Shown here: positions 2,382-39,104 of the stretch, piece by piece | Layout of the letters: the number at the start of each line of letters is the position of its first letter | Numbering within the stretch: the first letter of the stretch is position 1 | DNA from: Candidatus Magasanikiibacteriota bacterium | GTDB taxonomy: Bacteria > Patescibacteriota > Patescibacteriia > Magasanikbacterales > UBA10003 | Length of the DNA: 45,520 bases | Assembly: GCA_016214465.1 (NCBI GenBank) | Contig: JACROI010000021.1 | Location: 1-45,520 of the forward strand | Reading direction: 5' to 3' | Program-made: the position numbers and the translations under genes | The notes under the pieces: model-generated | Seen by the model: the letters and a program-made list of their open reading frames with translations, nothing else | Told to the model about the DNA's origin: nothing | Database searches by the model: none

Positions 2382-4632
2382 TGTTTATGCTTCTTCTTCA
2401 ATCAATGTAGGTAATGGAGCGAATTCCAGCACTTTTAAAGGAAATTATTTAGCATTAACCAATGGGACGAGTTCTACCGTGTTTAATGGCAGTTCTTTGA
2501 CTTTGGGCCAGGGCACAAATTACAATTCCGGAATGTTTAATGTTAATTCTAATGGGAATGTGAACGCGTCAGGGACTATACAACTTGCTAAATTGGGAAC
2601 TTCCAGCGCTGGAGTTACAACTTACAATTCCCCCGATATTAATATCCAATCTTCTGCTTGGGATACCGATGGCTCGGAAGACACCTGGCAGTTTAAAATA
2701 AGGAATGCTCCTTCAAGTGCGGCGACTACAGTCGGAAATTTAAAATTTTTAGTACAAAAAAATGCAAATTCGGAAGCGATGGTGTTTTCTGCAGATAGCG
2801 CTGGAGCTTTTACAGCAGTCACATCATTAAATACTAACACCGGTATAGTCCAATCGAATAATACGTTAATGATAGTAAAGGGATGGGCGGCTGACGGGGG
2901 CACATCCGTCGGTGTGGCTTTGGACGCGGGAACTGCCTTTGTAAATGCTGGCGCAAAATTGGTTTCTATCAGAAACGCAGGAACAGAAAAAGCATATTTT
3001 AATGCCTCCGGCACACCTGCTTTTGGCATTCAGACTGGATATAATGATGGATTATTCAAGATAGATACCTCCGGCAATGTCTCTGCAACCGGCTCCCTCA
3101 AAACCTTTGGTAATGTTACTTCCACCGGCAATCTTTACGCTCTTACCAGCACTGCCAGCACTTCTATTTTAAATGGCAGTTCTTTGACTTTGGGCCAGGG
3201 CACTGCTTACAACTCCGGAATGTTTAATGTTGATTCTAATGGGAATGTGAGAACATCCGGCACTACTTTCCAAATGTATGACCCTAATTCAGGCCAATTG
3301 TCCGCTAACTTTAGTATAATCACTTCTGTGGGCGGCCCACCGGGGCAAAACTATGCATCCACGACTTTTAATTCACTAGTATATGACAGCGTTGGTTCTA
3401 CAGGTTTTGTTTTTAATACTTATGTAGGAGGAGAAGGAGGAGCCATGACTTCGGGCACTACACCCGGAGTGCCTGATACTGCCGCACCTGCTAAAGCTTT
3501 GGCTGTGTTTCAAAATAATGGCACTAACAAAGTTATAATTTCGGCTGGCGGCAATGTCTATGCGAAAAATAGTTTTATTGCTAACAGTACCACTTACAGC
3601 ATCGCTGATATGGCCGAGTACGTTAATTTAACTACTGGCGAAACCGGCGAGCCGGGTGATGTGCTAGTAGTGGATTTAGCCCATCCCAATCAATATAAAA
3701 AATCATCTTCCGCTTATTCCAAAGAGATTGCTGGCGTAATTTCCGATACCGGAGCGTTTTTGATGGGCGCCTCGGGTGAAGGCCGCGCTCCTTTGGCCTT
3801 GGCCGGTTTAGTTAAAACCAAAGTTACGGATGAAAATGGTCCGATTGCTGTTGGCGATTACTTGGTTTCCGCTTCCAAGCCAGGCTATGCTATGAAGTAT
3901 GATTCATCTTCCGGTAAATCGGCCGGGTTGGTTGGTATGGCATTGGAACCATTGGCTAACGGCGATGGCAAAATCACTATTATGGTGAATATGACTGTTG
4001 GTGAAAACGGCGATGGTACTTTGTCCGGTGGAGAGGATTGGGATGTTGGCGGAAAAAATATCTTAAATGTTAAATCAATCAGCGGCGCGAACGGGTTGTG
4101 GTATATTGATGAAAAAGGGTTCTTGATGGCTAAAGAAATCAAAGCCGATAAAGTGCAAGCCAAAAAATTCGTGGTGGAAAAAGAAACTAATTTGAAAAAA
4201 GCCAGCGTGGGCGAAGCCACCATTAGCCAAAATAATTCCAGTATAACGGTGGAGAATGAATTGATTACTTCAAAAGTTAAAATTTTCATTACTTTCCGTT
4301 CCAACCCGCAGTCATTTTGGTGGATTTCAAAACAAGAAGACGGTAAATTTGAAGTGTCTTTGAGCAAAGTGGCGGAAGTGGATTTGACATTTGATTATTG
4401 GATTGTGGGAGTGGAAGACGCGCCTGCATTAGAGACGAAATCCGCTCCAGCCGCGTCTGTTGCTCCGATTGAGACGCCGGTGGTGCCGGTTGTTGAATCT
4501 GCGCCAATTACTCCAATCGTTCCCGACACAGCATCCGCGTCAACAACCGTTGAAACACCGGCACCGGTTGCGCCAGTTGAATTAGCTCCGACAGAGTCAG
4601 CGTCGGTTTCCGATGAAGTTCCCAATCCTTAA
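2155..4632 (+). CDS. Giant surface protein, C-terminal segment in the +1 frame (tail-fibre/adhesin-like repeats, globular C-terminal domain, Pro/Ala/Val-rich tail)
   Basis: This frame is open from 2128 (TAG at 2125-2127) and continues the same repeat type (GNVTSTG, SSLTLGQGT.YNSGMFNV.SNGNV). It includes the block IADMAEYVNL...GEPGDVLVVD...IAGVISD...PLALAGLVKTKV...GPIAVGDYLVSASKPGYAMK. The track start at 2155 is a TTG. Confidence 0.7.
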   Translation: MQTTGSMLTYGNVTSTGIIYASGGLISSASSSFGSNVNVSGVLNASGTVYLGGNLLTGTGTGNSLDIGALNNAFRDVYASSSINVGNGANSSTFKGNYLALTNGTSSTVFNGSSLTLGQGTNYNSGMFNVNSNGNVNASGTIQLAKLGTSSAGVTTYNSPDINIQSSAWDTDGSEDTWQFKIRNAPSSAATTVGNLKFLVQKNANSEAMVFSADSAGAFTAVTSLNTNTGIVQSNNTLMIVKGWAADGGTSVGVALDAGTAFVNAGAKLVSIRNAGTEKAYFNASGTPAFGIQTGYNDGLFKIDTSGNVSATGSLKTFGNVTSTGNLYALTSTASTSILNGSSLTLGQGTAYNSGMFNVDSNGNVRTSGTTFQMYDPNSGQLSANFSIITSVGGPPGQNYASTTFNSLVYDSVGSTGFVFNTYVGGEGGAMTSGTTPGVPDTAAPAKALAVFQNNGTNKVIISAGGNVYAKNSFIANSTTYSIADMAEYVNLTTGETGEPGDVLVVDLAHPNQYKKSSSAYSKEIAGVISDTGAFLMGASGEGRAPLALAGLVKTKVTDENGPIAVGDYLVSASKPGYAMKYDSSSGKSAGLVGMALEPLANGDGKITIMVNMTVGENGDGTLSGGEDWDVGGKNILNVKSISGANGLWYIDEKGFLMAKEIKADKVQAKKFVVEKETNLKKASVGEATISQNNSSITVENELITSKVKIFITFRSNPQSFWWISKQEDGKFEVSLSKVAEVDLTFDYWIVGVEDAPALETKSAPAASVAPIETPVVPVVESAPITPIVPDTASASTTVETPAPVAPVELAPTESASVSDEVPNP

Positions 4633-6999: not shown

Positions 7000-8205
7000 T
7001 TGTATATGATATTTAAAAGTAAAAAAGTGCTTGTAGCCATTTCCGGCGGAGTGGATTCAGCGGTTGCCGCGGCTTTATTGCAAAAAGCCGGGTATGAAGT
7101 GACTGGCGCGTTTATGAAGTGCTATAGCGGTTCCATTCCTGGCGGTAAAGCGCCATGCTGGATTGAAGACCGGCGCGAAGCTCTGCGGGTGGCGGCAAAA
7201 CTCGGAATTAAGCTCCTAACTTTTGATTTTGAAAAAGAATATCATCGCGATGTGATTGATTATTTGTATAAAGAATATCGCGCCGGCCGCACGCCCAATC
7301 CTGATGTAATGTGCAATAAGTATGTTAAAATTCCGCTTTTGTTAAAAGCGGCTGAAAAACTGAGTTTTGATTATATCGCCACCGGGCATTATGCGCGTCT
7401 GTCTGTAAATTGTCATTGCGAGGAGCGAAGCGACGAAGCAATCTCGTATAAGCTTTTACAGGCAACAGACAAAAATAAAGATCAGACATATTTTTTACAT
7501 CAATTGGGACAAAAAGAATTGCGACGATTGATTTTTCCAATTGGCGAGTTGTGCAAAAATGAAGTTCGCGCGTTGGCCAAACAATTTGATTTGCCTGTAG
7601 CCGAGAGGGAAGAGAGTATGGGAATTTGTTTTGTGGGCGAGGTTCCGATGAAAGAATTTTTGCAAAAAAAAATCAAGCCGTGTCGCGGATCAGTGATTTT
7701 GAGCAATGGTGGAAAAGTCGGTGGACATGATGGATTGGCATTTTACACTATTGGAGAAAAATTTTCCTGTCATTCTAAGCGCCAGCGAAGAATCTCTGAT
7801 TATTGCACAATGGATTCTTCGGCTTTGCCTCAGAATGACAATAAGCGGGCGTTATATGTGGTAGACAAAGATATAAAACGCAATCGCCTTATCGTCGGCC
7901 TGGCCGATAACCCTCTATTGTTTAAGGAAAAAATACAAGTGAGTATGGTGAATTGGTTGGCTGGACAAGCGCCTAAATTTCCTTTATCATGTGAAGTGAG
8001 GTTGAGGCACCGTCAGTTGCTTCAAAAAGCCATTGTCAGAAATTTAAAGTCAAAAATTTTAGTGGAGTTTGAAGCGCCGCAGAGGGCTGTTACCCCGGGT
8101 CAGTTCGCGGTGTTTTATAAAGACTGTGAGTGTCTGGGGGGCGGAACAATACGAGATTGCCACGCCACGACGGATATTGGGGCTCGCAATGACAAAAACG
8201 ATTGA
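7000..8205 (+). CDS. mnmA: tRNA-specific 2-thiouridylase MnmA, with palindromic-element-derived insertions and C-terminal tail
   Basis: PP-loop VLVAISGGVDSAVAAALL. Also RTPNPDVMCN, IATGHYAR, KDQTYFL and PGQFAVFY..CLGGGTI. Confidence 0.9.
   Translation: MYMIFKSKKVLVAISGGVDSAVAAALLQKAGYEVTGAFMKCYSGSIPGGKAPCWIEDRREALRVAAKLGIKLLTFDFEKEYHRDVIDYLYKEYRAGRTPNPDVMCNKYVKIPLLLKAAEKLSFDYIATGHYARLSVNCHCEERSDEAISYKLLQATDKNKDQTYFLHQLGQKELRRLIFPIGELCKNEVRALAKQFDLPVAEREESMGICFVGEVPMKEFLQKKIKPCRGSVILSNGGKVGGHDGLAFYTIGEKFSCHSKRQRRISDYCTMDSSALPQNDNKRALYVVDKDIKRNRLIVGLADNPLLFKEKIQVSMVNWLAGQAPKFPLSCEVRLRHRQLLQKAIVRNLKSKILVEFEAPQRAVTPGQFAVFYKDCECLGGGTIRDCHATTDIGARNDKND
7411..7446 (+). repeat. P-family palindromic-element arm inserted in frame in mnmA (encodes CHCEERSDEAIS)
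   Basis: tgtcattgcgaggagcgaagcgacgaagcaatctc is the exact 35-nt reverse complement of the right arm of the 118-bp elements at 23762-23796 and 39053-39087. Confidence 0.85.
7768..7840 (+). repeat. P-family complete hairpin element inserted in frame in mnmA (encodes CHSKRQRRISDYCTMDSSALPQNDN)
   Basis: Arms are tgtcattctaagcgccagcgaagaatc (7768-7794) and gattcttcggctttgcctcagaatgaca (7813-7840), with complementary termini. Confidence 0.8.
8153..8194 (+). repeat. Degenerate P-family arm spanning the mnmA 3' end and the alaS start
   Basis: gagattgcc...ggctcgcaatgaca resembles the right-arm consensus gagattgcttcg...ctcgcaatgaca. It encodes the mnmA tail and contains the alaS ATG (8189-8191) within gcaATGaca. 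Confidence 0.65.
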
Positions 8206-17771: not shown

Positions 17772-17785
17772 TAGATAATTTTATA

Positions 17786-17855
17786 GAGAAGCGCCTATAT
17801 CTTTTTTGCAGTCGCGGCGATAGTCCGCAGCAAAAAAAAGATATAGGCGCTTCTC
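17786..17855 (+). repeat. H-family 70-nt hairpin element (copy 1)
   Basis: Stem gagaagcgcctatatc pairs with gatataggcgcttctc. It encloses the conserved core ttttttgcagtcgcggcgatagtccgcagcaaaaaaaa. The left flank is attttatag, as in copy 2. Confidence 0.8.
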
Positions 17856-21255: not shown

Positions 21256-21405
21256 GCAGGCTCGGCAGATTATTTTTTTAGCTAGGATAAACTCGCCTGG
21301 CCTTTCAGGCCACCGGACTCGGCGTTCTCTACCTTAGCCATCGCAGAACGCCTCGTCCTGGCTCAAACATATCCTAGCTTCAAAAAATTATCTGCCTCCG
21401 CCTGC
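21256..21405. repeat. SE-family ~150-nt GC-rich structured palindromic element (copy 1)
   Basis: A long outer stem (gcaggc..ggcagat..agctaggata with tatcctagct..atctgcc..gcctgc) encloses hairpins ggcc-tttca-ggcc and ggcgttct-N16-agaacgcc. About 90% identical to the reverse complement of 37305-37455. Confidence 0.8.
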
Positions 21406-23695: not shown

Positions 23696-23813
23696 AGACC
23701 GTCCAACAACTCGTTTTTTGTCATTGCGAGCGAAGCGAAGCAATCTCTTTTGGCTTAAAACGAGATTGCTTCGTCGCTTCGCTCCTCGCAATGACAGTTG
23801 TTGGACAGTCTGG
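23696..23813. repeat. 118-bp composite palindromic element (copy 1), in the spacer between two minus-strand genes
   Basis: Outer inverted repeat: gaccgtccaacaact with agttgttggacagtc. Inner P-family arms: tgtcattgcgagcgaagcgaagcaatctc and gagattgcttcgtcgcttcgctcctcgcaatgaca. Identical over 118 nt to 38987-39104. Confidence 0.9.
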
Positions 23814-23824
23814 GTTTGATTATT

Positions 23825-24343
23825 TTATTCTCTAATCGGCATTATTTTTTTTCTCGCCATCCAATATCTCACTCCTTCATAGCACCCAAATAACACGGCC
23901 ACATAAAAAATATCACCCAAAAGCATATTGCGCCAGAATGGAATGGCGGCGATGTAGCTGGCTAAAAGTCCGTCGCTTGTAAATGGATAGAGTGTGCCAA
24001 ACTGCCAAACCGCCAAATTAGTCACTAGAAAAAAAATAGTTGAGCTGGCCAGAGTGGCGCCAAAAGTGGTGACGACTCCGCGGTGTTTGCCTAGCCACCA
24101 GCCCAAGAAACCGGACACGGCAAAGCTCCCGTACACGGAAATCATAATTGGCGCGCTGTAAAAGCCGATGAATAAATCACTCAAAAACATGGCGGCCATT
24201 GGCAGAAGAATGCTCAATCTTTTGTTTAAATAAACGCCGGAAAAAAGCGCCACGGCGGCAATAGGCGTGAAATTGGCCGGATGCGGCAGAAACCGCGCCG
24301 CAATGGCCAGAAGCACGAGAAAATATGGAAAGAATTTTTGCAT
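23825..24343 (-). CDS. Small ~6-TM membrane protein, last gene of the riboswitch-controlled operon (candidate corrinoid transporter or S-component)
   Basis: 172 aa and almost entirely hydrophobic. LPHPANFTPIAAVALFSGVYL. The start lies 2 nt after the stop of the upstream gene. Confidence 0.6.
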   Translation of the reverse strand: MQKFFPYFLVLLAIAARFLPHPANFTPIAAVALFSGVYLNKRLSILLPMAAMFLSDLFIGFYSAPIMISVYGSFAVSGFLGWWLGKHRGVVTTFGATLASSTIFFLVTNLAVWQFGTLYPFTSDGLLASYIAAIPFWRNMLLGDIFYVAVLFGCYEGVRYWMARKKIMPIRE

Positions 24344-24345
24344 AT

Positions 24346-26634
24346 TTAGATAAATGTTAATAATAATCTTCCAAATAAAAATATGGTGGCTCCGGCAAAC
24401 AGAATCGCGCTACCGGTGGCAGTGGTTGTGGCGACTTTTTTCTCCAGAGGGGCGATGGGCGATGGTGTTTCAGGAGGACTGTTAGTGATGTTTGCCATGG
24501 CTGGAGTTTCCGGTTGGCTTATTATTGTAGATTGCGCGGGTGCTGTCGGCGTGGGAGAAAGTTTTAATGGTTTAATTATATCAGGAACGGAACTTGAAGG
24601 CAAGGCGTTTTTTACAATTTCCTCTGCTGATGAAGTTGGCGTCAGCGCGATTATTTCAATCGGTTCTGAAATAACAGGCAAGGTTGACGATGTCATTGCC
24701 AGAGTAGAAGTCGCGGTAATTGGCAAAGTTGATGTGGCAGTTGAAGATGCTGTTTCAATAGGGGTAGATAAAATACTGCCCACACTCCCACCCACGCCGC
24801 CAGAATTCGCTGGAGCAGGTGTTGGTTGCGGTTTTGGAGTTAAAATTATCGGCCACGATTTTCCCAGTAACGCAGGCACGGCGTGTTTTGTGCCAAACCA
24901 ATCAACTATGCCCGGTGCCCAAGCCGACTCGTAATAACCGTCGGTTTTTAATTGCTCGGTCAAAACCGACCATGGATTCTTGTTTTGACTGTTAGTCCAA
25001 TCAGTTTGTCCTTCATTTAAAGAATTTACGCCCATCATGGCCCAGCCTGTGGTAAGCGGGTCAGAAACGCCAAAGCCCCAGCCGCCGTCAGCTAGTTGTT
25101 GTGATTTTAAATAGGCCTTGGCTTTGGTAAAGATATTTTGGTCAATTGTCGCGCCTTTATTTTTGGCATATTGCAGAGCGTTCACAGCCGCGCCGGTAAT
25201 ATCAGCTGAAGCCCAGCCGGCCCAAGTAAAAGCGCCGTCCGCGGTTTGGTCTGCAATAATTGTGGCCAAAATATCATTGGCAATCAATTCGTTCGCCGGC
25301 GTATCAGTCGCAAGTAAAGCGAAGAGCGCAAAAACATCATCATTAATTCCATTCAATCCGTATTTGTTGTTTTTATAGCACTCTGCGCTTTTGATTTTTG
25401 AGATTAAATTTTGGACGGTGTTATCCGAGCCGGCCATGCCCGAAGCAAGAAATGCCAAAGTATGCCGTGGATAACTGGCGCATAGATTTAGCAAATCGCT
25501 TTCATCAGTAAAATTATATCCTTTGGCAAAATTTAATAATGATGTACTGCTGGCGGCGATTTCGTCGGCGTATTGATTATTGGCGCCAAAAGACATTATT
25601 GCCCAGTCGGTAATACTGGCATCAATTATTTTTCCATCCGCGCTTTGTTGTGTTTTTAAAAAATTAAGAATTGATTGGGTTTTGGCCGCGATATCCGCTG
25701 ATGAAATTGTCGGAGTGGGAGTTAATGAACCACCGCCTCCGCCACCACCTGTATTGGTGTCGGTTTCAGGTGTGCTCGTGGCCGTGGAGGTTGGAGTTTC
25801 AGGAGCCGGGAGCACTGTGAGAGTTATGGGCCAGCTCCATTTGGAATAATCTGTCGAGGTGATTTTTGCAAAATAGGTGCCAGTGGCGGAAAAAGCGTAT
25901 TCAACAGTGCCAGAGGCATTGGTGGCGAGGGTTGTTGTGGTGATAGTCGTGTCCCACCAGCCAGTTTGGTTTGGATTGGGGATGCTGATGTCAACAGTGT
26001 CATTGCGGTCAAGTGTCCATTCATCGTCCAGATTGTCGTAATTGTATCGCCAAGTTTGCAAAGTGGTGGTAGTGTTTATTGGAAAAGTACTGGTAGTTGC
26101 GGTGATTTTCCAAGAATCGTCAAAGTAAATGTAAACAGTGTCGTTATTTTGCAAACCGTATGAATCCATGCCGATGCTTGGGTATGATCCATTAACAGAA
26201 TAATTCCAATTGCCGCAGGCCGAAGTGCTCGTTGGCGCGGTAATGACAAGGCAGTTAAGGTAGAAACTTTGATAGGCGTCGTAGTAATCAAGTTGGGAGA
26301 TTGAAAAATTGTCCGAAAGCGCGTCAGCCTCTGTTAGAATTGTGAGCGGGCTGGATGAGGCGTTGACAGAGTGGCTTCCGGCAGTGTCCATAAGTGAGCT
26401 GGTGGCAGTGGAGGTTACTGCGCCGGAAAACAGAAAAGAATCTTGGTAGCGGAGAAAAAAGTTGATAGAGAGGCCCGGTGTACTCGTGGCAGTTGAAGTT
26501 GCTATTTCTTGTGTCGGGATTGTAATTTCAGGCGTGCTGGTAGTTTCTTCGGCCTGAACCGGTCTGGCGGAGAAGAATATTAAGACAATTGTCATTCCAA
26601 TGAAAATTGGAATCTTAAAATTTCGCATTTTCAT
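24346..26634 (-). CDS. Surface-anchored multidomain protein: signal peptide, DUF4430-like domain, beta-rich module, prenyltransferase/terpene-cyclase-like alpha/alpha toroid, Pro/Thr stalk, C-terminal TM anchor
   Basis: Signal peptide IFIGMTIVLIFFSARPVQA. DUF4430 signature ACGNWNYSVNGSYPSIGMDSYGLQNNDTVYIYF. A Gly7 linker. Toroid repeats QQSADGKI, DQTADGAFTW, QQLADGGWGF. C-terminal anchor GSAILFAGATIFLFGRLLLTFI. Confidence 0.7.
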   Translation of the reverse strand: MKMRNFKIPIFIGMTIVLIFFSARPVQAEETTSTPEITIPTQEIATSTATSTPGLSINFFLRYQDSFLFSGAVTSTATSSLMDTAGSHSVNASSSPLTILTEADALSDNFSISQLDYYDAYQSFYLNCLVITAPTSTSACGNWNYSVNGSYPSIGMDSYGLQNNDTVYIYFDDSWKITATTSTFPINTTTTLQTWRYNYDNLDDEWTLDRNDTVDISIPNPNQTGWWDTTITTTTLATNASGTVEYAFSATGTYFAKITSTDYSKWSWPITLTVLPAPETPTSTATSTPETDTNTGGGGGGGSLTPTPTISSADIAAKTQSILNFLKTQQSADGKIIDASITDWAIMSFGANNQYADEIAASSTSLLNFAKGYNFTDESDLLNLCASYPRHTLAFLASGMAGSDNTVQNLISKIKSAECYKNNKYGLNGINDDVFALFALLATDTPANELIANDILATIIADQTADGAFTWAGWASADITGAAVNALQYAKNKGATIDQNIFTKAKAYLKSQQLADGGWGFGVSDPLTTGWAMMGVNSLNEGQTDWTNSQNKNPWSVLTEQLKTDGYYESAWAPGIVDWFGTKHAVPALLGKSWPIILTPKPQPTPAPANSGGVGGSVGSILSTPIETASSTATSTLPITATSTLAMTSSTLPVISEPIEIIALTPTSSAEEIVKNALPSSSVPDIIKPLKLSPTPTAPAQSTIISQPETPAMANITNSPPETPSPIAPLEKKVATTTATGSAILFAGATIFLFGRLLLTFI
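26590..26614. repeat. Short hairpin with P-family-like termini at the junction of two operon genes
   Basis: tgtcattccaatgaaaattggaatc has the same TGTCATTCC-hairpin-GGAATC frame as 27262-27287. It encodes part of the signal peptide (KIPIFIGMT). Confidence 0.45.
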
Positions 26635-27253
26635 AGCGCCAAGTGATTATATCGTTATGATTAAGTTTAATGTAGGAGACGCCTAATTTGGCCGCTTGAC
26701 CATTGATGTAGTAAATCCAGTAAAGATTTGATTTGGAATCGTTGGTTAAGTTGTCAATCGTTTCCACAAACGCGCCCAAGCTACTGAATTGGGAGAATTT
26801 AATGGGGATTTGCTCTTGCAGTTGTTGCATGGCTTCGTAAACTGTGCTTTGTGGTGCAACTTTGATTGGAAATTCTTTATTGAACGTGGGCGCGATGAAT
26901 TTGAAAGTGACAGAGATACTATTTTCATCAGGTTTTTCAATTGGTGTTACATTGGAAATTGCGTCAGCCACAAAAGAAGTCGCGGAAATTGGTTGTTTAT
27001 TTTTTTCAGAGTCATTGCGAGGCGCAGCCGAAGCAATCTCGTTTTTATCATCCCGAGCGGAGCGAAGGATATTTTGCGAAATTGTCCCAGTAGCAAAAGA
27101 ATCCGTGGATTTCATCTCCGCTGTTTTTGTTGATGTGTTTTGAATCGTCTGTTTATCCAGATTATTCAGCCAAATCATACTCCAAATCAAAAGCAGGCCG
27201 GACAGCGCCCATAGGCCAAAGTGGTGGGTATGTTTTTTAACAAAATGTTTCAT
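26615..27253 (-). CDS. Membrane-anchored DUF4430 (transcobalamin beta-domain-like) protein, first gene after the riboswitch
   Basis: Start chosen at ATG 27253 (MKHFVKK...); the track start at 27292 is a TTG inside a repeat hairpin. TM anchor FGLWALSGLLLIWSMIWL. C-terminus SNLYWIYYINGQAAKLGVSYIKLNHNDIITWRYE. Confidence 0.7.
   Translation of the reverse strand: MKHFVKKHTHHFGLWALSGLLLIWSMIWLNNLDKQTIQNTSTKTAEMKSTDSFATGTISQNILRSARDDKNEIASAAPRNDSEKNKQPISATSFVADAISNVTPIEKPDENSISVTFKFIAPTFNKEFPIKVAPQSTVYEAMQQLQEQIPIKFSQFSSLGAFVETIDNLTNDSKSNLYWIYYINGQAAKLGVSYIKLNHNDIITWRYENAKF
27011..27071. repeat. Two tandem P-family arms inserted in frame in the DUF4430 gene (encode SARDDKNEIASAAPRNDS on the minus strand)
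   Basis: gtcattgcgaggcgcagccgaagcaatctcg followed by tcatcccgagcggagcgaaggata. Confidence 0.7.
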
Positions 27254-27261
27254 AGTTTTTT

Positions 27262-27287
27262 TGTCATTCCCGCGAAAGCGGGAATCC
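27262..27287. repeat. P-family-related short hairpin in the 5' UTR of the operon
   Basis: tgtcattcccgcgaaagcgggaatcc, with stem attcccgc / gcgggaat. Confidence 0.6.
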
Positions 27288-27300
27288 AGCAATATATTTA

Positions 27301-27333
27301 AAAACTCTTTTCCGGCAAAAAGAAAAGAGTTGT
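27301..27333 (-). terminator. Intrinsic terminator forming the riboswitch expression platform
   Basis: Minus-strand RNA AACUCUUUUC-uuuuugccg-GAAAAGAGUU followed by UUAAAU. Confidence 0.6.
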
Positions 27334-27367
27334 CCTTTTCTCCTGCTCGGGAGTTGGTGTATGTGGA

Positions 27368-27464
27368 TAACTTTTAAACAAAGTTCCGGCTGGCCCCTGT
27401 GTGTGGGGGTTCACGGTTGCGGCACAGTGGGGGATTTGCGCCCCTCTTCCATGCTTAAAAGTTA
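27368..27464 (-). promoter_or_regulatory. Cobalamin riboswitch aptamer (compact, class-II-like)
   Basis: Minus-strand RNA: UAACUUUUAAGCAUGGAAGAGGGGCGCAAAUCCCCCACUGUGCCGCAACCGUGAACCCCCACACACAGGGGCCAGCCGGAACUUUGUUUAAAAGUUA. It has a GGAAG + GGGG-CGCAAAU-CCCC hairpin, a C.G..CCGC.AC.GU.A junction, a B12-box-like GCCAGCCGGAAC and a 10-bp P1. Confidence 0.75.
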
Positions 27465-27492
27465 GGTGTGGATAAGTTTTAATGGTGATTTT

Positions 27493-27522
27493 AGAATAGC
27501 AGAAAAAGGTAGTAGTTGTCAA
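27493..27522 (-). promoter_or_regulatory. Promoter of the riboswitch operon
   Basis: On the minus strand: TTGACA (27522-27517), 18-nt spacer, TATTCT (27498-27493). Confidence 0.4.
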
Positions 27523-27565: not shown

Positions 27566-28885
27566 ATGGTAATTTTAGGAATAAAAATTGACAATTTTTC
27601 AAAATCGGAAATTTTAGCTAAAATTAGCGAATTTTTGCGTTTGGGTGCCGGACATTTTATTACCACTCCAAATCCGGAAATGCTGGTTGATGTGGAATAT
27701 GATTGGTTTTTCAAGCAGGCCTTGAATAAGGCGGAAATGGCAGTGGCAGATGGGTTTGGTTTGCCTCTTGCAGCGCGATATTTATATGGCGAAAAACTAA
27801 CTCGTTGGGCCGGTATTGATTTGATGGAGAAAATTTGTGAAATTGCCGCCGAGCAGAAAAAAAGCGTGTATTTGATTGGCGGAAAAGAGGGGATTGCGGC
27901 CAAAGCGGCCGAAAAATTGCAAAAAAAATTTTTTGGGTTGAAAGTTGTTGGAGCGGAGAGTGGGATTGTGTTTGAATGTCATCCCGAGCGAAGCGAGGGA
28001 TCTTTGCATACCAATATTCTCAAAGATTCTTCGCCACGTTTGGACTGGGCTCAGAATGACAACGGCGAGTATCTTACAGGTTTAAATTTTAATGTTGCTG
28101 AGAATAATAAATTATTGGAACGCATCCGCGCCGCTACTCCAGATATTCTTTTTGTGGCTTTTGGTCATGGCAAACAGGAAAAATGGTTGGCGGAATTTTT
28201 ATCACAATTGCCATTAGTAAAAATTGGCATGGGAGTGGGCGGGGCTTTTGATTATATTTCCGGCCAAGTTTTGCGCGCGCCGAAATTTGTGCGTCAGCTC
28301 GGATTTGAATGGTTGTGGCGTTTGTTGAATCAGCCATGGCGGATAAAACGAATTTGGAAAGCAGTTGTGTCTTTTGGTTTGTTGGTGAAAGATTACAAAA
28401 TACAAATTGCCATGCCTTATCGCCAAGGAGTAATCGGATTTATTGTAAATAGGGAAGGAAAATTTTTTATCGCCAAACGTTGTCCAATGCCAACTGATTC
28501 ATATTTTTTTAATATTGAGCACTGGCAGCCGCCGCAAGGTGGAATCAGCGTTGACGAAACGGCCGAACAGGCGATTTTGAAAGAAGTGCGAGAGGAAACC
28601 GGAATGACAGCCGAGATTGTGGCGCGTTGTGTTGATGTTTGTAAATATGACTGGAGTATTGCCTTTATGAAGAAGAAAGGCAAGGGTTATCATTTCAGGG
28701 GTCAACAAAAATCAGTTTTTCTGCTAAAATACAATGGTGACGGCAGTGACATCAAAGTGGATAAAATTGAGCTGTGCGGTTACCGTTGGGTGGATTTGGA
28801 AGAACTGAAAAAAATAATTCATCCGATGCGCCGGCCGTCTTTAGAAATTTTATTAAATGAAATTAAATTTCGAGATATTTTATAG
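27566..28885 (+). CDS. WecG/TagA/CpsF-family (GT26) glycosyltransferase fused in frame to an RppH-like Nudix hydrolase
   Basis: N-terminal ILGIKIDNFSKSEILAKI, TPNPEMLV, IGGKEGIA, PDILFVAFGHGKQEKW, APKF....GFEWLWRL..P.R. From M283 (28412): YRQGVIGFIV, WQPPQGGISVDETAEQAILKEVREETGM (Nudix box). Confidence 0.75.
   Translation: MVILGIKIDNFSKSEILAKISEFLRLGAGHFITTPNPEMLVDVEYDWFFKQALNKAEMAVADGFGLPLAARYLYGEKLTRWAGIDLMEKICEIAAEQKKSVYLIGGKEGIAAKAAEKLQKKFFGLKVVGAESGIVFECHPERSEGSLHTNILKDSSPRLDWAQNDNGEYLTGLNFNVAENNKLLERIRAATPDILFVAFGHGKQEKWLAEFLSQLPLVKIGMGVGGAFDYISGQVLRAPKFVRQLGFEWLWRLLNQPWRIKRIWKAVVSFGLLVKDYKIQIAMPYRQGVIGFIVNREGKFFIAKRCPMPTDSYFFNIEHWQPPQGGISVDETAEQAILKEVREETGMTAEIVARCVDVCKYDWSIAFMKKKGKGYHFRGQQKSVFLLKYNGDGSDIKVDKIELCGYRWVDLEELKKIIHPMRRPSLEILLNEIKFRDIL
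27977..28061 (+). repeat. P-family element (two arms plus spacer) inserted in frame in the GT26 domain (encodes CHPERSEGSLHTNILKDSSPRLDWAQNDN)
   Basis: Arms tgtcatcccgagcgaagcgagggatc (27977-28002) and gattcttcgccacgtttggactgggctcagaatgaca (28025-28061). Confidence 0.75.
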
Positions 28886-28954
28886 GGACGTTCTAATTTC
28901 TTTTTTGCAGTCGTGGCGACAGTCCGCAGCAAGAAAAAGAAATTGGAACGTCCC
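28885..28954 (+). repeat. H-family 70-nt hairpin element (copy 2)
   Basis: Stem gggacgttctaatttc pairs with gaaattggaacgtccc and encloses ttttttgcagtcgtggcgacagtccgcagcaagaaaaa. The left flank is attttatag. Confidence 0.8.
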
Positions 28955-32083: not shown

Positions 32084-33022
32084 ATGAATACTCTACCGCT
32101 GAAAGAAGAATTTTTATTAAATATTCAAATCAACAACTACTCCCCCGAAACGGTTTATAATTATGAACGAGATTTGTCAGTGTTCGAAGATTTTTTGAAT
32201 TCGGAAATTAAAACAGATTTTAGGAAAGTCACAAAGAAAGATTTGCTTTTATATAAGGCCTACCTAGCTTCAATCGATCGTCTCACTCCACTGCGACAGA
32301 AAGGCAATAAACGATTATCCAGTTTTTCGCTAAACCATGCTCTTTCCGCTCTGCGATCATATTTGAAATTTTTAATTGATATGGATTTTGTTTCACCAAT
32401 CGCTCCCAACTCCGTCACTTTAATTAAAACTGAGCGTCGCCATACTCAGATCGCGGAAATGCCCGAATTTATAAAATTAATTGAATTTCCAACTAAAATT
32501 GAAAAAAATAAAATTATTGGTTTGCGCAATCGGGCTATGTTAGAAACATTATTTGCCACCGGCATGCGCATTTCCGAACTCCTGTCTTTAAAAAGATCGC
32601 AAATTGATCATACTGGCAGGATATTTATTACTGGCAAGGGTAAAAAACAACGGTTTGTTTACTTAACCCCTCGCGCCATGTGGATTATTAAAGAATATTT
32701 AAAAACTCGCAAGGATACATTTGCCGCTCTTTTTGTGCCTTACCGCGGTAGAAACAGCGGAGAGAAAGATAAACACATTTCGTGTAATTATTTGCAATAT
32801 AAGATTAAAAAATATCGTGAGTTGCTTAAAATTAATCTGCCTGTTAGTGCTCATTCTTTGCGGCATGCCTTTGCGACTTATTTAGCGGAAGAAGGGGCGA
32901 ATCCGGCAGCTTTGCAACATTTGTTGGGGCATGAATCACTGACAACCACAACGCGTTATGTGCATGCTTCTGATCGATACGCGGAGGAAACACATCGGAA
33001 ATTTCATCCGTTAAAAGATTAA
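32084..33022 (+). CDS. Tyrosine site-specific recombinase (XerC/XerD-like integrase)
   Basis: NRAMLETLFATGMRISEL, HSLRHAFATYLAEEGANPAALQHLLGHESLTTTTRYVH. Confidence 0.85.
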   Translation: MNTLPLKEEFLLNIQINNYSPETVYNYERDLSVFEDFLNSEIKTDFRKVTKKDLLLYKAYLASIDRLTPLRQKGNKRLSSFSLNHALSALRSYLKFLIDMDFVSPIAPNSVTLIKTERRHTQIAEMPEFIKLIEFPTKIEKNKIIGLRNRAMLETLFATGMRISELLSLKRSQIDHTGRIFITGKGKKQRFVYLTPRAMWIIKEYLKTRKDTFAALFVPYRGRNSGEKDKHISCNYLQYKIKKYRELLKINLPVSAHSLRHAFATYLAEEGANPAALQHLLGHESLTTTTRYVHASDRYAEETHRKFHPLKD

Positions 33023-37319: not shown

Positions 37320-37455
37320 ATAATTTTTGAATGAGGATATGTTTGAGCCAGGACGAGGCATTCTGCGATGGCTAAGGCCGTGAATGCCGAGTCCGGTGGC
37401 CTGAAAGGCCAGGCGAGTTTATCCGAGTGAAAAAAATTTATATGCCGAGCCTGCC
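37305..37455. repeat. SE-family ~150-nt structured element (copy 2, inverted relative to copy 1)
   Basis: Its reverse complement matches 21256-21405 with compensatory differences in two stems. Its arms supply the last 6 codons and stop of lysS, and the ATG plus 5 codons of the downstream gene. Confidence 0.8.
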
Positions 37456-38986: not shown

Positions 38987-39104
38987 AGACCGTCCAACAA
39001 CTCGTTTTTTGTCATTGCGAGCGAAGCGAAGCAATCTCTTTTGGCTTAAAACGAGATTGCTTCGTCGCTTCGCTCCTCGCAATGACAGTTGTTGGACAGT
39101 CTGG
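38987..39104. repeat. 118-bp composite palindromic element (copy 2), nested inside a short P-type hairpin
   Basis: 100% identical to 23696-23813. Flanked by tgtcattgcga (38975-38985) and ggcaatctcg (39106-39115). Confidence 0.9.

What the first reader, a model, noticed from the sequence alone, without database searches (positions are those of the whole stretch)
27301..27522. Compact cobalamin riboswitch with a terminator, upstream of an operon lacking any canonical B12 gene
Reverse-complementing 27464..27368 gives UAACUUUUAA-GCAU-GGAAGA-GGGG-CGCAAAU-CCCC-CACUGUGCCGCAACCGUGA-ACCCC-CACACACA-GGGG-CCAGCCGGAACUUUG-UUUAAAAGUUA. This carries the hallmarks of the cobalamin riboswitch family. GGAAG is followed by a GG.G-..AAAU-CC.C hairpin. 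The C.G..CCGC.AC.GU.A junction string is present. A second GC hairpin and a B12-box-like GCCAGCCGGAAC follow. A 10-bp P1 helix (UAACUUUUAA with UUAAAAGUUA) closes the aptamer. At about 97 nt it lacks the large peripheral extension of AdoCbl-type members and resembles the compact class-II type. About 35 nt downstream lies AACUCUUUUC-N9-GAAAAGAGUU followed by U-rich sequence, a probable intrinsic terminator. The 3' P1 strand is partly complementary to the terminator 5' arm (AACU and UUUU blocks), which is the usual antiterminator logic. A TTGACA-18-TATTCT promoter precedes the aptamer. The genes that follow are not btuB, btuFCD, cob, metE or nrd.
Basis: partly seen in the sequence, partly recalled or inferred. 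Interest (0 to 1): 0.75.

Follow-up and report, generated by a model that had tools for sequence, protein, structure and literature searches.

The report
B12 riboswitch controlling putative B12-uptake operon
This is a genuine vitamin-B12-sensing RNA switch in a Patescibacteria (CPR) genome, and the three uncharacterised genes it controls look like a system for capturing and importing B12, so the missing "classical" B12 genes are not a paradox.

Summary
The sequence features are all present as described. Rfam's AdoCbl model (RF01482, cobalamin clan) matches window 27477-27330 (-) at 54.1 bits (cut-off 50), the only Rfam match in the window. A model built from relatives finds the same RNA in 39 of 80 related loci. 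All six helices covary.

Two points need correcting. First, the switch logic is probably not P1 against the terminator (-1.5 kcal/mol). It is more likely the known L5-L13 kissing-loop design: a conserved hairpin, P13 (CUCC-CGAGCA-GGAG, 27353-27340), whose 3' side can instead pair with the terminator's 5' arm.

Second, the operon is B12-related:
- ORF1 is an anchored DUF4430 domain, homologous to the B12-binding beta domain of haptocorrin, intrinsic factor and transcobalamin.
- ORF2 is DUF4430 plus an alpha/alpha toroid, and looks surface-anchored.
- ORF3 is DUF6580, a membrane protein with an ECF S-component fold. Its only PDB sequence match is the B12 component CbrT, and that match is marginal.

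Cobalamin riboswitches of three Rfam families precede DUF6580 genes in 49 of 80 loci, some of which also carry a TonB-dependent receptor.

Verdict: the riboswitch is ordinary and the cargo is interesting. No binding or transport was tested.

The parts
27493..27522 (-). Promoter-like site TTGACA (27522-27517), 18-nt spacer, TG-TATTCT (27498-27493)
   Evidence: 10 of 12 matches, TG present. Both hexamers are conserved in relative L084 although the spacer differs. Transcription was not tested.
27368..27464 (-). Cobalamin aptamer, P1 to P1. Closing helix 27464-27453 with 27379-27368. P4 hairpin 27446-27429. P5 27426-27418 with L5 UGCCG at 27424-27420. P6 27416-27386 with a short hairpin CCCC/GGGG. 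B12-box/J6-3 at 27391-27380.
   Evidence: Rfam RF01482 54.1 bits, cut-off 50. Own model R1 91 bits. Helices covary in 49 aligned relatives.
27340..27353 (-). P13 hairpin CUCC-CGAGCA-GGAG. The L13 loop CGAGCA (27349-27344) is the proposed kissing partner of L5.
   Evidence: Part of the RF01482 model. The loop is nearly invariant, and the stem covaries CC/GG to UU/AA in relatives. L5 CCG can pair with L13 CG(A)G. That L5-L13 kissing loops exist in cobalamin riboswitches comes from PMC10327014 and PMC7367189.
27319..27343 (-). Proposed antiterminator: GGAGAAAAG (27343-27335) pairs with CUUUUCUUU (27327-27319), which consumes the 3' side of P13 and most of the terminator 5' arm.
   Evidence: It is part of the minimum-energy fold. 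Duplex -13.0 kcal/mol against -10.2 for the terminator arms. The same logic appears in relatives. Inferred, not tested.
27298..27331 (-). Terminator-like hairpin AACUCUUUUC (27331-27322), loop UUUUUGCCG, GAAAAGAGUU (27312-27303), then UUUAAAU
   Evidence: -9.5 to -10.5 kcal/mol. 32 of the 35 relatives' leaders in which the P13 motif was located have a hairpin plus U-run after P13. Not listed by the consensus scan.
27263..27289 (-). Small palindromic repeat CUGGAUUCCCGCUUUCGCGGGAAUGAC lying between the terminator and the start codon. Probably not part of the switch.
   Evidence: The same element occurs in reverse orientation at L085:1-27. It is absent from the otherwise near-identical leader of L084.
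26615..27253 (-). ORF1, 212 aa: N-terminal hydrophobic anchor, low-complexity linker, C-terminal DUF4430 domain. Start ATG at 27253.
   Evidence: Pfam DUF4430 E 1.7e-15. The family profile hits haptocorrin 4KKI (1.2e-5), intrinsic factor (1.6e-4) and transcobalamin 2BB6 (2.9e-3). The MKHF start is conserved in relatives.
24346..26634 (-). ORF2, 762 aa: signal-like N-terminus, beta-rich region with a partial DUF4430 match, Gly/Ser/Thr linker, alpha/alpha toroid, long S/T/P-rich linker, C-terminal hydrophobic anchor. Overlaps ORF1 by 20 nt.
   Evidence: DUF4430; SQHop_cyclase_C below its cut-off. AlphaFold model pLDDT 88. Foldseek matches to squalene-hopene cyclase and complement TED. Hydropathy. 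3 of 35 homologues match Pfam Cobalamin_bind.
23825..24343 (-). ORF3, 172 aa, DUF6580 membrane protein and putative corrinoid transporter. Starts 2 nt after the ORF2 stop codon.
   Evidence: Pfam DUF6580 3e-48. Model pLDDT 89 with S-component matches RibU, FolT, PanT and ThiT. The only PDB sequence hit is CbrT, 6FNP_A, E 0.096. Riboswitch linkage in 49 of 80 loci.

Best explanation
This is a compact cobalamin (corrinoid) riboswitch of the Rfam AdoCbl family RF01482, with Cbl-IIb-like architecture. It lies in the 5' leader of a three-gene operon, ORF1-ORF2-ORF3 on the minus strand, of a Patescibacteria (CPR) genome.

Proposed mechanism (inferred): when a corrinoid is bound, loop L5 (UGCCG) kisses loop L13 (CGAGCA) and holds the short P13 hairpin closed. 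The downstream sequence then folds into the terminator hairpin, and transcription stops before ORF1. Without ligand, P13 opens and its 3' side (GGAGAAAAG) pairs with the terminator's 5' arm (CUUUUCUUU), so transcription reads through.

Proposed role of the operon (inferred): corrinoid capture and import. It encodes two membrane-anchored extracellular proteins carrying DUF4430 domains, which are homologues of the B12-binding beta domain of transcobalamin, intrinsic factor and haptocorrin. One of them also has an alpha/alpha toroid. The third gene encodes a small DUF6580 membrane protein with an ECF S-component-like fold, which would move the corrinoid across the membrane. The whole is therefore ordinary feedback repression of uptake when B12 is plentiful.

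Shown here: the RNA family match, covariation, gene linkage and domain homologies. Inferred: ligand binding, the kissing loop, termination control and transport.
For: RNA identity.
- RF01482 scores 54.1 bits against a cut-off of 50 and is the only Rfam match in the window.
- The two closest relatives' leaders also pass: L084 at 50.8 bits and L085 at 59.8 bits.
- Model R1, built from 13 leaders, finds 41 further copies at E<1e-3 in 39 of 80 DUF6580 loci, all on the gene's strand.
- In the 49-sequence alignment, 90.3% of cells are paired against 37-47% for slid controls. 28 of 30 pairs show changes on both sides, including all three P13 pairs. That alignment was fitted to the model's own structure, so it leans towards it.
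- L084 has a compensated P6 hairpin, CCGCG/CGCGG in place of CCCC/GGGG.

Mechanism.
- An L5-L13 kissing loop is common to the Cbl-I and Cbl-II classes (PMC7367189).
- Here L5 CCG can pair with L13 CG(A)G.
- The P13 segment against the terminator's 5' half gives -13.0 kcal/mol.
- With the aptamer enforced, the platform folds into the alternative hairpin. With P13 also enforced, the terminator forms.
- In 32 of the 35 relatives' leaders where the P13 motif was located, a hairpin plus U-run follows P13. In 22 of those 32, the P13 segment is complementary to the terminator's 5' half with z < -2 against shuffles.

Cargo.
- ORF1 matches DUF4430 at 1.7e-15. Its family profile hits haptocorrin, intrinsic factor and transcobalamin beta domains.
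- ORF2 carries DUF4430 plus a toroid. 3 of 35 homologues match Pfam Cobalamin_bind, best E 1.5e-7.
- ORF3 has an S-component fold, and its single PDB sequence hit is CbrT.
- Cobalamin-clan riboswitches of three Rfam families precede DUF6580 in 49 of 80 loci.
- In two Ignavibacteria loci that were examined, the order is riboswitch, TonB-dependent receptor, DUF6580. One of them has metH next door.
- The DUF4430, large protein, DUF6580 gene order recurs in about 25 CPR loci.
Against: - No ligand binding, termination or transport was measured.
- L5 and L13 are nearly invariant, so the kissing loop has no covariation support.
- The terminator is AU-rich with three G-C pairs. Only three U follow the stem, and the consensus scan did not list it.
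- In the window, the ligand-free alternative is a long nested hairpin (-19.0 kcal/mol) that also ends at the U-run. It might itself terminate.
- The window's own complementarity z-score is only -1.35, because both strands are low-complexity A- or U-rich.
- ORF2's toroid resembles terpene cyclases and complement TED domains more than transcobalamin in the fold search. The window's ORF2 does not itself match Pfam Cobalamin_bind.
- The DUF6580-CbrT match is marginal, at E 0.096.
- No ECF energising module and no B12-dependent enzyme is encoded in the 45-kb window.
- Most of the two-gene DUF4430-DUF6580 loci show no detectable riboswitch.
Confidence: 0.7

Rival explanations
1. The riboswitch works through P1: without ligand, the 3' strand of P1 pairs with the terminator's 5' arm as the antiterminator, and the hairpin between them plays no role.
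For: AACU and UUUU blocks are shared between the P1 5' strand and the terminator 5' arm. P1-based switching is the common design in many other riboswitch classes (general knowledge).
Against: The best duplex between the P1 3' strand and the terminator 5' arm is 4 bp at -1.5 kcal/mol. No such pairing appears in the minimum-energy or constrained folds. This model leaves the near-invariant P13/L13 hairpin and its complementarity to the terminators of relatives unexplained.
Confidence: 0.08
2. The aptamer is real, but control is not simple termination. Control could be translational, or could act through mRNA stability. Alternatively, both conformations could terminate to different degrees, since the ligand-free hairpin also abuts the U-run.
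For: The alternative hairpin (-19.0 kcal/mol) ends with the same AACUC/GAGUU pairs next to the U-run. The U-run is short. Many compact cobalamin riboswitches, such as env8, act on translation (PMC10327014).
Against: P13 and the hairpin lie 45 to 100 nt upstream of the ATG, and no Shine-Dalgarno-like sequence is sequestered. In 32 of the 35 relatives' leaders where the P13 motif was located, a hairpin plus U-run follows P13, often with 6-8 U. In several relatives the alternative pairing is not nested and leaves the terminator 3' arm unpaired.
Confidence: 0.15
3. The operon is not an uptake system. It could encode surface proteins with another role, for example a B12-independent function that is switched off when B12 is available, or host attachment. 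On this reading, DUF6580 transports a precursor or another molecule.
For: ORF2's toroid matches terpene cyclases and complement TED domains best. No function has been tested for DUF4430 in bacteria or for DUF6580, and the paper library holds nothing on DUF6580. B12 riboswitches do repress B12-independent isozymes such as metE (PMC10327014).
Against: The DUF4430 profile specifically hits the cobalamin-binding domains of three eukaryotic carriers. DUF6580 lies with TonB-dependent receptors behind riboswitches, and next to metH. Its only PDB sequence match is the B12-specific S-component. Three different riboswitch families are linked to the gene.
Confidence: 0.12
4. It is a chance match or a decayed, non-functional relic.
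For: The Rfam score is only 4 bits above the cut-off, and the model's 3' hairpin aligns poorly.
Against: R1 scores it at 91 bits. The element is conserved in the same gene context in dozens of genomes, with compensatory changes.
Confidence: 0.02

Closest known systems
Rfam RF01482 'AdoCbl riboswitch' (clan CL00101), equivalent to the Cbl-IIb architectural class (PMC7367189)
   Same: Same core: GGAA junction, P4 hairpin, P5 with a GCC-containing loop, CCGCAAC, B12 box and a closing helix. No P2 module, a short hairpin on P6, and a 3' P13 hairpin with a CGAG-containing loop. It passes the gathering score.
   Different: It scores only just above the cut-off. P13 has 4 bp here, against about 12 bp in the model. 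Several CPR relatives fall below Rfam's cut-off (L002, L006, L007, L015). Ligand preference is unknown.
Priestia megaterium metE corrinoid riboswitch (Kennedy et al. 2023, PMC10327014)
   Same: Same proposed logic: an L5-L13 kissing loop stabilises P13. [quoted passage not shown]
   Different: That riboswitch belongs to a larger class, with L5 UCCCG and five contiguous kissing pairs. Here L5 is UGCCG, and the pairing needs a bulged A in L13. That one was tested by mutagenesis and this one was not.
env8 hydroxocobalamin riboswitch (Cbl-IIa, PDB 4FRN)
   Same: Compact, with no large P6 extension, and a kissing loop that contains a bulge.
   Different: env8 belongs to the other compact family (RF01689 type), has a bulged J1/3, and controls translation. 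The window matches RF01482 better and carries a terminator.
ECF-CbrT of Lactobacillus delbrueckii (PDB 6FNP; nrdJ-cbrS-cbrT-pduO cluster, PMC5997447)
   Same: A small six-helix S-component-type membrane protein for B12. CbrT is the only PDB sequence that the DUF6580 profile finds.
   Different: CbrT belongs to Pfam ECF_trnsprt, whereas ORF3 matches only DUF6580. The match has E 0.096. CbrT needs an ECF module, and none is seen in the window.
BtuM of Thiobacillus denitrificans (PMC6072759)
   Same: A solitary small membrane protein with an S-component-like fold, predicted as a B12 transporter from its co-location with btuB. That is the same kind of evidence found here for DUF6580.
   Different: BtuM has an invariant cobalt-ligating cysteine. 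DUF6580 has no invariant cysteine. BtuM was not among the 50 fold matches listed.
Transcobalamin, intrinsic factor and haptocorrin (eukaryotic B12 carriers)
   Same: The DUF4430 domain of ORF1 is homologous to their cobalamin-binding beta domain. ORF2 adds an alpha/alpha toroid, which is the general fold type of their alpha domain (my recollection of the fold classification; not tested here). 3 of 35 ORF2 homologues match Pfam Cobalamin_bind.
   Different: The domain order is reversed in ORF2, and ORF1 has only the beta domain. Both proteins are membrane-anchored. The toroid is closer to terpene cyclase and TED domains in the fold search.

Membership tests
Cobalamin riboswitch, Rfam RF01482 (clan CL00101) | Covariance-model score at or above the curated gathering score | tested here: met
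   54.1 bits against 50, E 2.7e-07 for the whole window.
Cobalamin riboswitch, Rfam RF01482 (clan CL00101) | Conserved core sequence: GGAA junction, P4 hairpin, P5 with CCGC.AC, and a B12 box AGYCMGG | tested here: met
   GGAAG, GGGG-CGCAAAU-CCCC, CUGUGCCGCAACCGU and AGCCGGAAC are all present. The same columns are invariant in 13 relatives.
Cobalamin riboswitch, Rfam RF01482 (clan CL00101) | Helices P1, P4, P5, P6 and P13 maintained by compensatory changes in homologues | tested here: met
   28 of 30 pairs show changes on both sides. 90.3% of cells are paired against 37-47% for slid controls. The alignment was fitted to the model, so it leans towards the structure.
Cobalamin riboswitch, Rfam RF01482 (clan CL00101) | L5-L13 kissing-loop complementarity | tested here: inconclusive
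   L5 CCG (27422-27420) can pair with L13 C-G-(A)-G (27349-27346). Both loops are nearly invariant in relatives, so there is no covariation.
Cobalamin riboswitch, Rfam RF01482 (clan CL00101) | Binds a corrinoid and changes gene expression in response | not testable with these tools
   Needs in-line probing or ITC, and transcription or reporter assays.
Cbl-IIb architectural subclass (PMC7367189) | No P2 loop-stem-loop; J1/3 short and paired or mismatched; P6 carries only a short hairpin | tested here: met
   A continuous 12-bp closing helix, then AUGGAA. The P6 extension is CCCC-CACACACA-GGGG.
Cbl-IIb architectural subclass (PMC7367189) | Selective for adenosylcobalamin | not testable with these tools
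Intrinsic terminator | G+C-rich stem directly followed by a U-run | tested here: inconclusive
   A 10-11 bp stem with 3 G-C pairs at -9.5 to -10.5 kcal/mol. The run of 5 U is partly inside the stem. Not listed by the consensus scan. Relatives have clearer U-runs.
Eukaryotic-type cobalamin carriers (transcobalamin, intrinsic factor, haptocorrin) | C-terminal beta domain (Pfam DUF4430) | tested here: met
   ORF1 1.7e-15; ORF2 partial match 3.6e-06. The profile hits 4KKI, 3KQ4, 2PMV and 2BB6.
Eukaryotic-type cobalamin carriers (transcobalamin, intrinsic factor, haptocorrin) | N-terminal alpha domain (Pfam Cobalamin_bind, PF01122), followed by the beta domain in one chain | tested here: not met
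   The window's ORF2 does not match PF01122; only 3 of 35 homologues do. The domain order in ORF2 is beta-like first, then toroid. ORF1 has no toroid.
ECF transporter S-components (CbrT type) | Small six-helix S-component fold | tested here: met
   The model has pLDDT 89.4. Foldseek gives RibU 5KC0 (prob 1.00, TM 0.54), 4HUQ_S, PanT 6ZG3_C and ThiT 3RLB.
ECF transporter S-components (CbrT type) | Sequence membership in an S-component family (Pfam ECF_trnsprt or an NCBIfam model) | tested here: not met
   ORF3 matches only DUF6580 and no NCBIfam model. CbrT itself is ECF_trnsprt. The profile-to-CbrT match has E 0.096.
ECF transporter S-components (CbrT type) | An ECF module (EcfA, EcfA', EcfT) encoded in the genome | not testable with these tools
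   None is seen in the 45.5-kb window. The rest of the genome is not available.
BtuM family | Invariant cobalt-ligating cysteine (Cys80 in BtuM of T. denitrificans) | tested here: not met
   No cysteine is among the invariant or nearly invariant columns of 26 DUF6580 proteins. The definition is from PMC6072759.

The most novel reading that the evidence does not exclude
The riboswitch marks a previously undescribed corrinoid-scavenging system. DUF6580 would be a new and large family of B12 transporters, with 6,424 clusters at 50% identity and no characterised member. It would be distinct from BtuCDF, ECF-CbrT and BtuM. In CPR bacteria it would be fed by membrane-anchored, transcobalamin-like capture proteins built from DUF4430 and an alpha/alpha toroid. 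In Gram-negative Ignavibacteria it would sit behind a TonB-dependent receptor.
Probability: 0.55. Interest if true: 0.65.

Novelty: new member of a known kind. Interest (0 to 1): 0.5.

Why it matters
The riboswitch itself adds little. It is one more member of a well-known family, although it shows that Rfam's cut-offs miss many CPR copies.

Its value is as a pointer. How bacteria that lack BtuCDF, ECF-CbrT and BtuM take up B12 is still largely unknown (stated in PMC6072759). CPR bacteria have small genomes (general knowledge, not tested here), so they presumably depend on scavenged cofactors.

The linkage found here nominates DUF6580 as a candidate B12 transporter that can be tested directly. 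The family has thousands of clusters, across CPR, Ignavibacteria/Bacteroidota, Verrucomicrobia and DPANN-labelled archaea. The linkage also nominates bacterial DUF4430 proteins as relatives of the human B12 carriers. All three proteins are small enough for standard complementation and binding assays.

Tried and rejected
- Single-sequence searches of ORF1, ORF2 and ORF3 against PDB sequences gave nothing significant. Only family profiles worked.
- NCBIfam has no model for ORF1 or ORF3.
- Literature searches found nothing useful: DUF6580 gave 0 papers; 'cobalamin riboswitch' with Patescibacteria gave 0; transcobalamin-like with bacteria and riboswitch gave 0; the single CPR/cobalamin/riboswitch paper was irrelevant.
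- RNAalifold run de novo on 13 leaders mispaired the P5 region. I imposed the Rfam-like structure instead and tested it by pair counts.
- I considered that L13 might pair with the UGCCG in the window's terminator loop. This was rejected because the closest relative has UAUCG there.
- BtuM membership was rejected, because there is no invariant cysteine.
- A transcobalamin-like fold for ORF2's toroid was not established. The fold search returned complement TED and squalene-hopene cyclase, with no transcobalamin in the 50 matches listed.
- ORF4 (23654-22230) and ORF5 (LigB/Memo) were rejected as part of the operon. They are not syntenic with the cassette. In the closest relatives, two opposite-strand genes separate them from DUF6580.
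- The closest relative's contigs, L081-L083, are cut off before the leader.
- No B12-dependent enzyme or ECF module was found among the window's other genes.
Full report
**1. The observation**

It has:
- GGAAG;
- a GGGG-CGCAAAU-CCCC hairpin;
- CACUGUGCCGCAACCGU;
- a CCCC-CACACACA-GGGG hairpin;
- AGCCGGAAC;
- a closing helix UAACUUUUAAGC/GUUUAAAAGUUA.

The hairpin AACUCUUUUC-N9-GAAAAGAGUU lies at 27331..27303, followed by UUUAAAU. TTGACA-18-TATTCT lies at 27522..27493.

Rfam RF01482 (AdoCbl, cobalamin clan CL00101) matches 27477..27330 (-) at 54.1 bits against a gathering score of 50, with E 2.7e-07. It is the only Rfam match in the 45.5-kb window.

**2. Relatives and covariation**

The window is from a Patescibacteria (CPR) genome. 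The closest homologues of its proteins come from Patescibacteria and Magasanikbacteria metagenome bins.

I used the most conserved downstream protein, ORF3, to fetch 80 loci from species-representative genomes. Rfam on a first batch of 14 loci found cobalamin-clan riboswitches upstream of the gene, on the same strand, in six of them. Those six came from three different families: RF00174, RF01482 and RF01689.

I aligned 13 compact leaders, imposed the Rfam-like structure, and built model R1. R1 scores the window at 91 bits. It finds 41 further copies at E<1e-3 in 39 loci, all on the gene's strand.

Pair counts on the 49-sequence structural alignment:
- 90.3% of cells form standard pairs, against 37-47% when partners are slid by 1-3 columns.
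- 28 of 30 pairs show changes on both sides.
- All six helices covary, including the three P13 pairs (CG to UA).
- Caveat: this alignment was fitted to the model structure, so it leans towards it.

Other points from the relatives:
- The closest relative with a leader, L084, has the same RNA with a compensated P6 hairpin (CCGCG/CGCGG in place of CCCC/GGGG) and the same promoter hexamers. Rfam scores it at 50.8 bits.
- Rfam's cut-offs missed L002, L006, L007 and L015, which R1 finds at 43-109 bits. This CPR group is therefore under-called by standard annotation.

**3. Architecture and class**

There is no P2 module between the closing helix and the junction, and P6 carries only a short hairpin. 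Under the definitions in PMC7367189, this is the Cbl-II type.

A continuous closing helix plus a short P6 hairpin fits Cbl-IIb, which is described as adenosylcobalamin-selective. It fits less well with Cbl-IIa (env8 type, hydroxo- or methylcobalamin). This agrees with RF01482 outscoring RF01689. The same paper warns that small peripheral changes shift selectivity, so I treat the ligand form as open.

**4. Expression platform**

It corresponds to P13/L13 of the RF01482 model.

In relatives, the loop CGAGCA is almost invariant and the stem covaries, CC/GG to UU/AA.

What the literature says:
- L5-L13 kissing loops are common to all cobalamin riboswitch classes (PMC7367189).
- In the mutationally dissected P. 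megaterium metE riboswitch, the kissing loop stabilises P13. [quoted passage not shown] The functional pairs there are L5 CCG with L13 CGG (PMC10327014).

In the window, L5 is UGCCG (27424..27420). Its CCG can pair with L13 C-G-(A)-G with one bulged A, which resembles the bulged env8 kissing loop mentioned in the same paper.

Energies:

| Structure | kcal/mol |
|---|---|
| P13 alone | -4.5 |
| Terminator alone | -9.5 |
| P13 segment against the terminator 5' arm plus loop | -13.0 |
| Terminator arms | -10.2 |

With the aptamer helices enforced, the platform folds into the alternative hairpin (-45.7 kcal/mol in total). With P13 also enforced, the terminator forms (-42.4). A kissing loop plus ligand therefore needs to contribute only about 3 kcal/mol.

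Of 38 relatives' leaders analysed, the P13 motif was located in 35. In 32 of those 35, a hairpin plus U-run follows P13. In 22 of those 32, the P13 segment is more complementary to the terminator's 5' half than to shuffles, with z < -2 and a median of -2.7.

Caveats:
- The window's own z-score is -1.35, because the strands are A-rich and U-rich.
- Its U-run is short.
- The consensus scan did not list the hairpin.
- The ligand-free alternative in the window is a nested hairpin (-19.0 kcal/mol) that also abuts the U-run.

I therefore put about 0.6 on termination control by this route.

**5. The operon**

ORF1 (27253..26615), ORF2 (26634..24346) and ORF3 (24343..23825) overlap or abut: there is a 20-nt overlap, then a 2-nt gap.

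ORF4 and ORF5 downstream are not part of it, for three reasons:
- A 170-nt gap holds a 118-nt repeat and a promoter-like site.
- They are not syntenic with the cassette.
- In the closest relatives, two opposite-strand genes intervene.

*ORF1 (212 aa)* has an N-terminal hydrophobic segment, a low-complexity linker, and a C-terminal DUF4430 domain (E 1.7e-15). A profile of 28 ORF1-like proteins matches the beta domains of haptocorrin (4KKI, 1.2e-5), intrinsic factor (3KQ4 and 2PMV, 1.6e-4) and transcobalamin (2BB6, 2.9e-3). PMC4350170 confirms that DUF4430 is the C-terminal domain of these carriers.

*ORF2 (762 aa)* has, in order:
- a signal-like N-terminus;
- a beta-rich region with a partial DUF4430 match;
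- a glycine-rich linker;
- an alpha/alpha toroid;
- a long Ser/Thr/Pro-rich linker;
- a C-terminal hydrophobic anchor.

The fold search puts the toroid with squalene-hopene cyclases and complement TED domains. The window's ORF2 itself does not match Pfam Cobalamin_bind, although 3 of 35 homologues do, with best E 1.5e-7.

*ORF3 (172 aa)* matches DUF6580 (3e-48):
- The AlphaFold model (pLDDT 89) matches ECF S-components RibU, FolT, PanT and ThiT at TM 0.52-0.56.
- The family profile finds exactly one PDB sequence, 6FNP chain A, at E 0.096. The entry 6FNP is ECF-CbrT, the B12 transporter of L. delbrueckii (PMC5997447). The chain is labelled only 'Membrane protein'. I take it to be CbrT from its 182-residue length and its match to Pfam ECF_trnsprt.
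- DUF6580 has no invariant cysteine, so it is not BtuM.

**6. Linkage across genomes**

I combined R1 hits at E<1e-3 with Rfam matches at the gathering threshold. On that count, 49 of the 80 DUF6580 loci carry a cobalamin-clan riboswitch upstream on the same strand. Several of the remaining loci are cut off too close to the gene to tell.

Gene orders seen:
- About 25 CPR loci: riboswitch, DUF4430 protein, large ORF2-like protein, DUF6580.
- About 20 loci: a two-gene DUF4430-DUF6580 form, mostly without a detectable riboswitch.
- Ignavibacteria L014 and L033: RF00174 riboswitch, TonB-dependent receptor, DUF6580. L033 has metH immediately downstream.
- L011, labelled Nanoarchaeia: RF01689 riboswitch, DUF4430, DUF6580.

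This is the same kind of evidence that led to BtuM (PMC6072759).

The family is large: 6,424 cluster representatives at E<=1e-3. The paper library holds nothing on it. NCBI calls it only a 'putative transport protein'.

**7. Conclusion**

The finding is a real cobalamin riboswitch of a known family. Its most likely behaviour is as an OFF switch, acting through a kissing-loop / P13 / antiterminator / terminator platform.

The operon is not B12-unrelated. It is best read as a corrinoid capture-and-import cassette. The riboswitch is ordinary. The cassette is a good lead to an uncharacterised B12 transporter family and to bacterial relatives of the human B12 carriers.

Nothing about ligand binding, termination or transport was measured here.

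Noticed in passing
window 27263-27289 (-); L085:1-27: A 27-nt palindromic repeat, CTGGATTCCCGCTTTCGCGGGAATGAC, lies between the riboswitch terminator and the ORF1 start codon. The same element occurs in reverse orientation in another CPR contig, and it is absent from the near-identical leader of L084. It creates a spurious TTG-start extension of ORF1 (MLDSRFRGNDKKT). It looks like a small mobile repeat.
   Followed up: partly
window 27048-27074 and 27979-28005: Copies of a GC-rich palindromic repeat (TCATCCCGAGCG(G/A)AGCGA(A/G)GGAT) lie inside coding regions and in frame. One is in the ORF1 linker, where it encodes ILRSARDDK. The other is in the WecG/NUDIX gene, where it encodes HPERSEGS. Related copies lie at 23721-23747 and 39012-39038.
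   Followed up: no
window 23696-23813 and 38987-39104; also 7399-7447 inverted: A 118-nt perfect direct repeat made of nested palindromes. One copy fills the gap right after ORF3 (DUF6580) and so marks the end of the operon. A partial inverted copy lies at 7399-7447.
   Followed up: no
window 21272-21375 and 37334-37437: A 104-nt inverted repeat, 92% complementary, with a further 33-nt pair beside it. It flanks a 16-kb segment that contains the riboswitch operon and a tyrosine recombinase gene (32084-33022; Phage_integrase). It could be an invertible or mobile segment, or just repeated intergenic elements.
   Followed up: no
window 17778-17847 and 28877-28946; L084:780-870: A 70-nt palindromic intergenic repeat (…CTATATCTTTTTTGCAGTCGCGGCGATAGTCCGCAGCAAAAAAAAGATATAGG) lies downstream of two genes. 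In relative L084, a related element sits directly after the riboswitch terminator.
   Followed up: no
L002, L006, L007, L015 (leaders upstream of DUF6580): Rfam at gathering thresholds reports no riboswitch in these loci. The model built here scores them at 43-109 bits, in the same gene context. CPR cobalamin riboswitches are under-called by the curated cut-offs.
   Followed up: partly
L046:5122-5225; L018:5339-5452: Very small variants of the aptamer, about 93-114 nt including P13. They lack the P6 hairpin altogether but keep the L5 sequence, L13 CGAGCA and a terminator with strong complementarity to P13 (z -5.8 and -4.3).
   Followed up: no
L020 (3994-4098 and 5805-5925), L054 (5420-5508 and 7031-7138), L032:7156-7284, L065:7469-7720: Some loci carry a second cobalamin riboswitch just downstream of DUF6580, or only a downstream one. 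This implies that further B12-regulated genes lie next to it. Those genes were not examined.
   Followed up: no
window 27566-28885 (+): The divergently transcribed neighbour is a fusion of a WecG/TagA-type glycosyltransferase and a NUDIX hydrolase domain. The glycosyltransferase match is split in two by the in-frame repeat insertion.
   Followed up: no
window 18-2381 and 2155-4632 (+): Two large ORFs (787 and 825 aa) have no Pfam match and contain internal repeats of 50-150 nt (repeat families D1, D2, D10 and D14). They are probably repetitive surface proteins.
   Followed up: no
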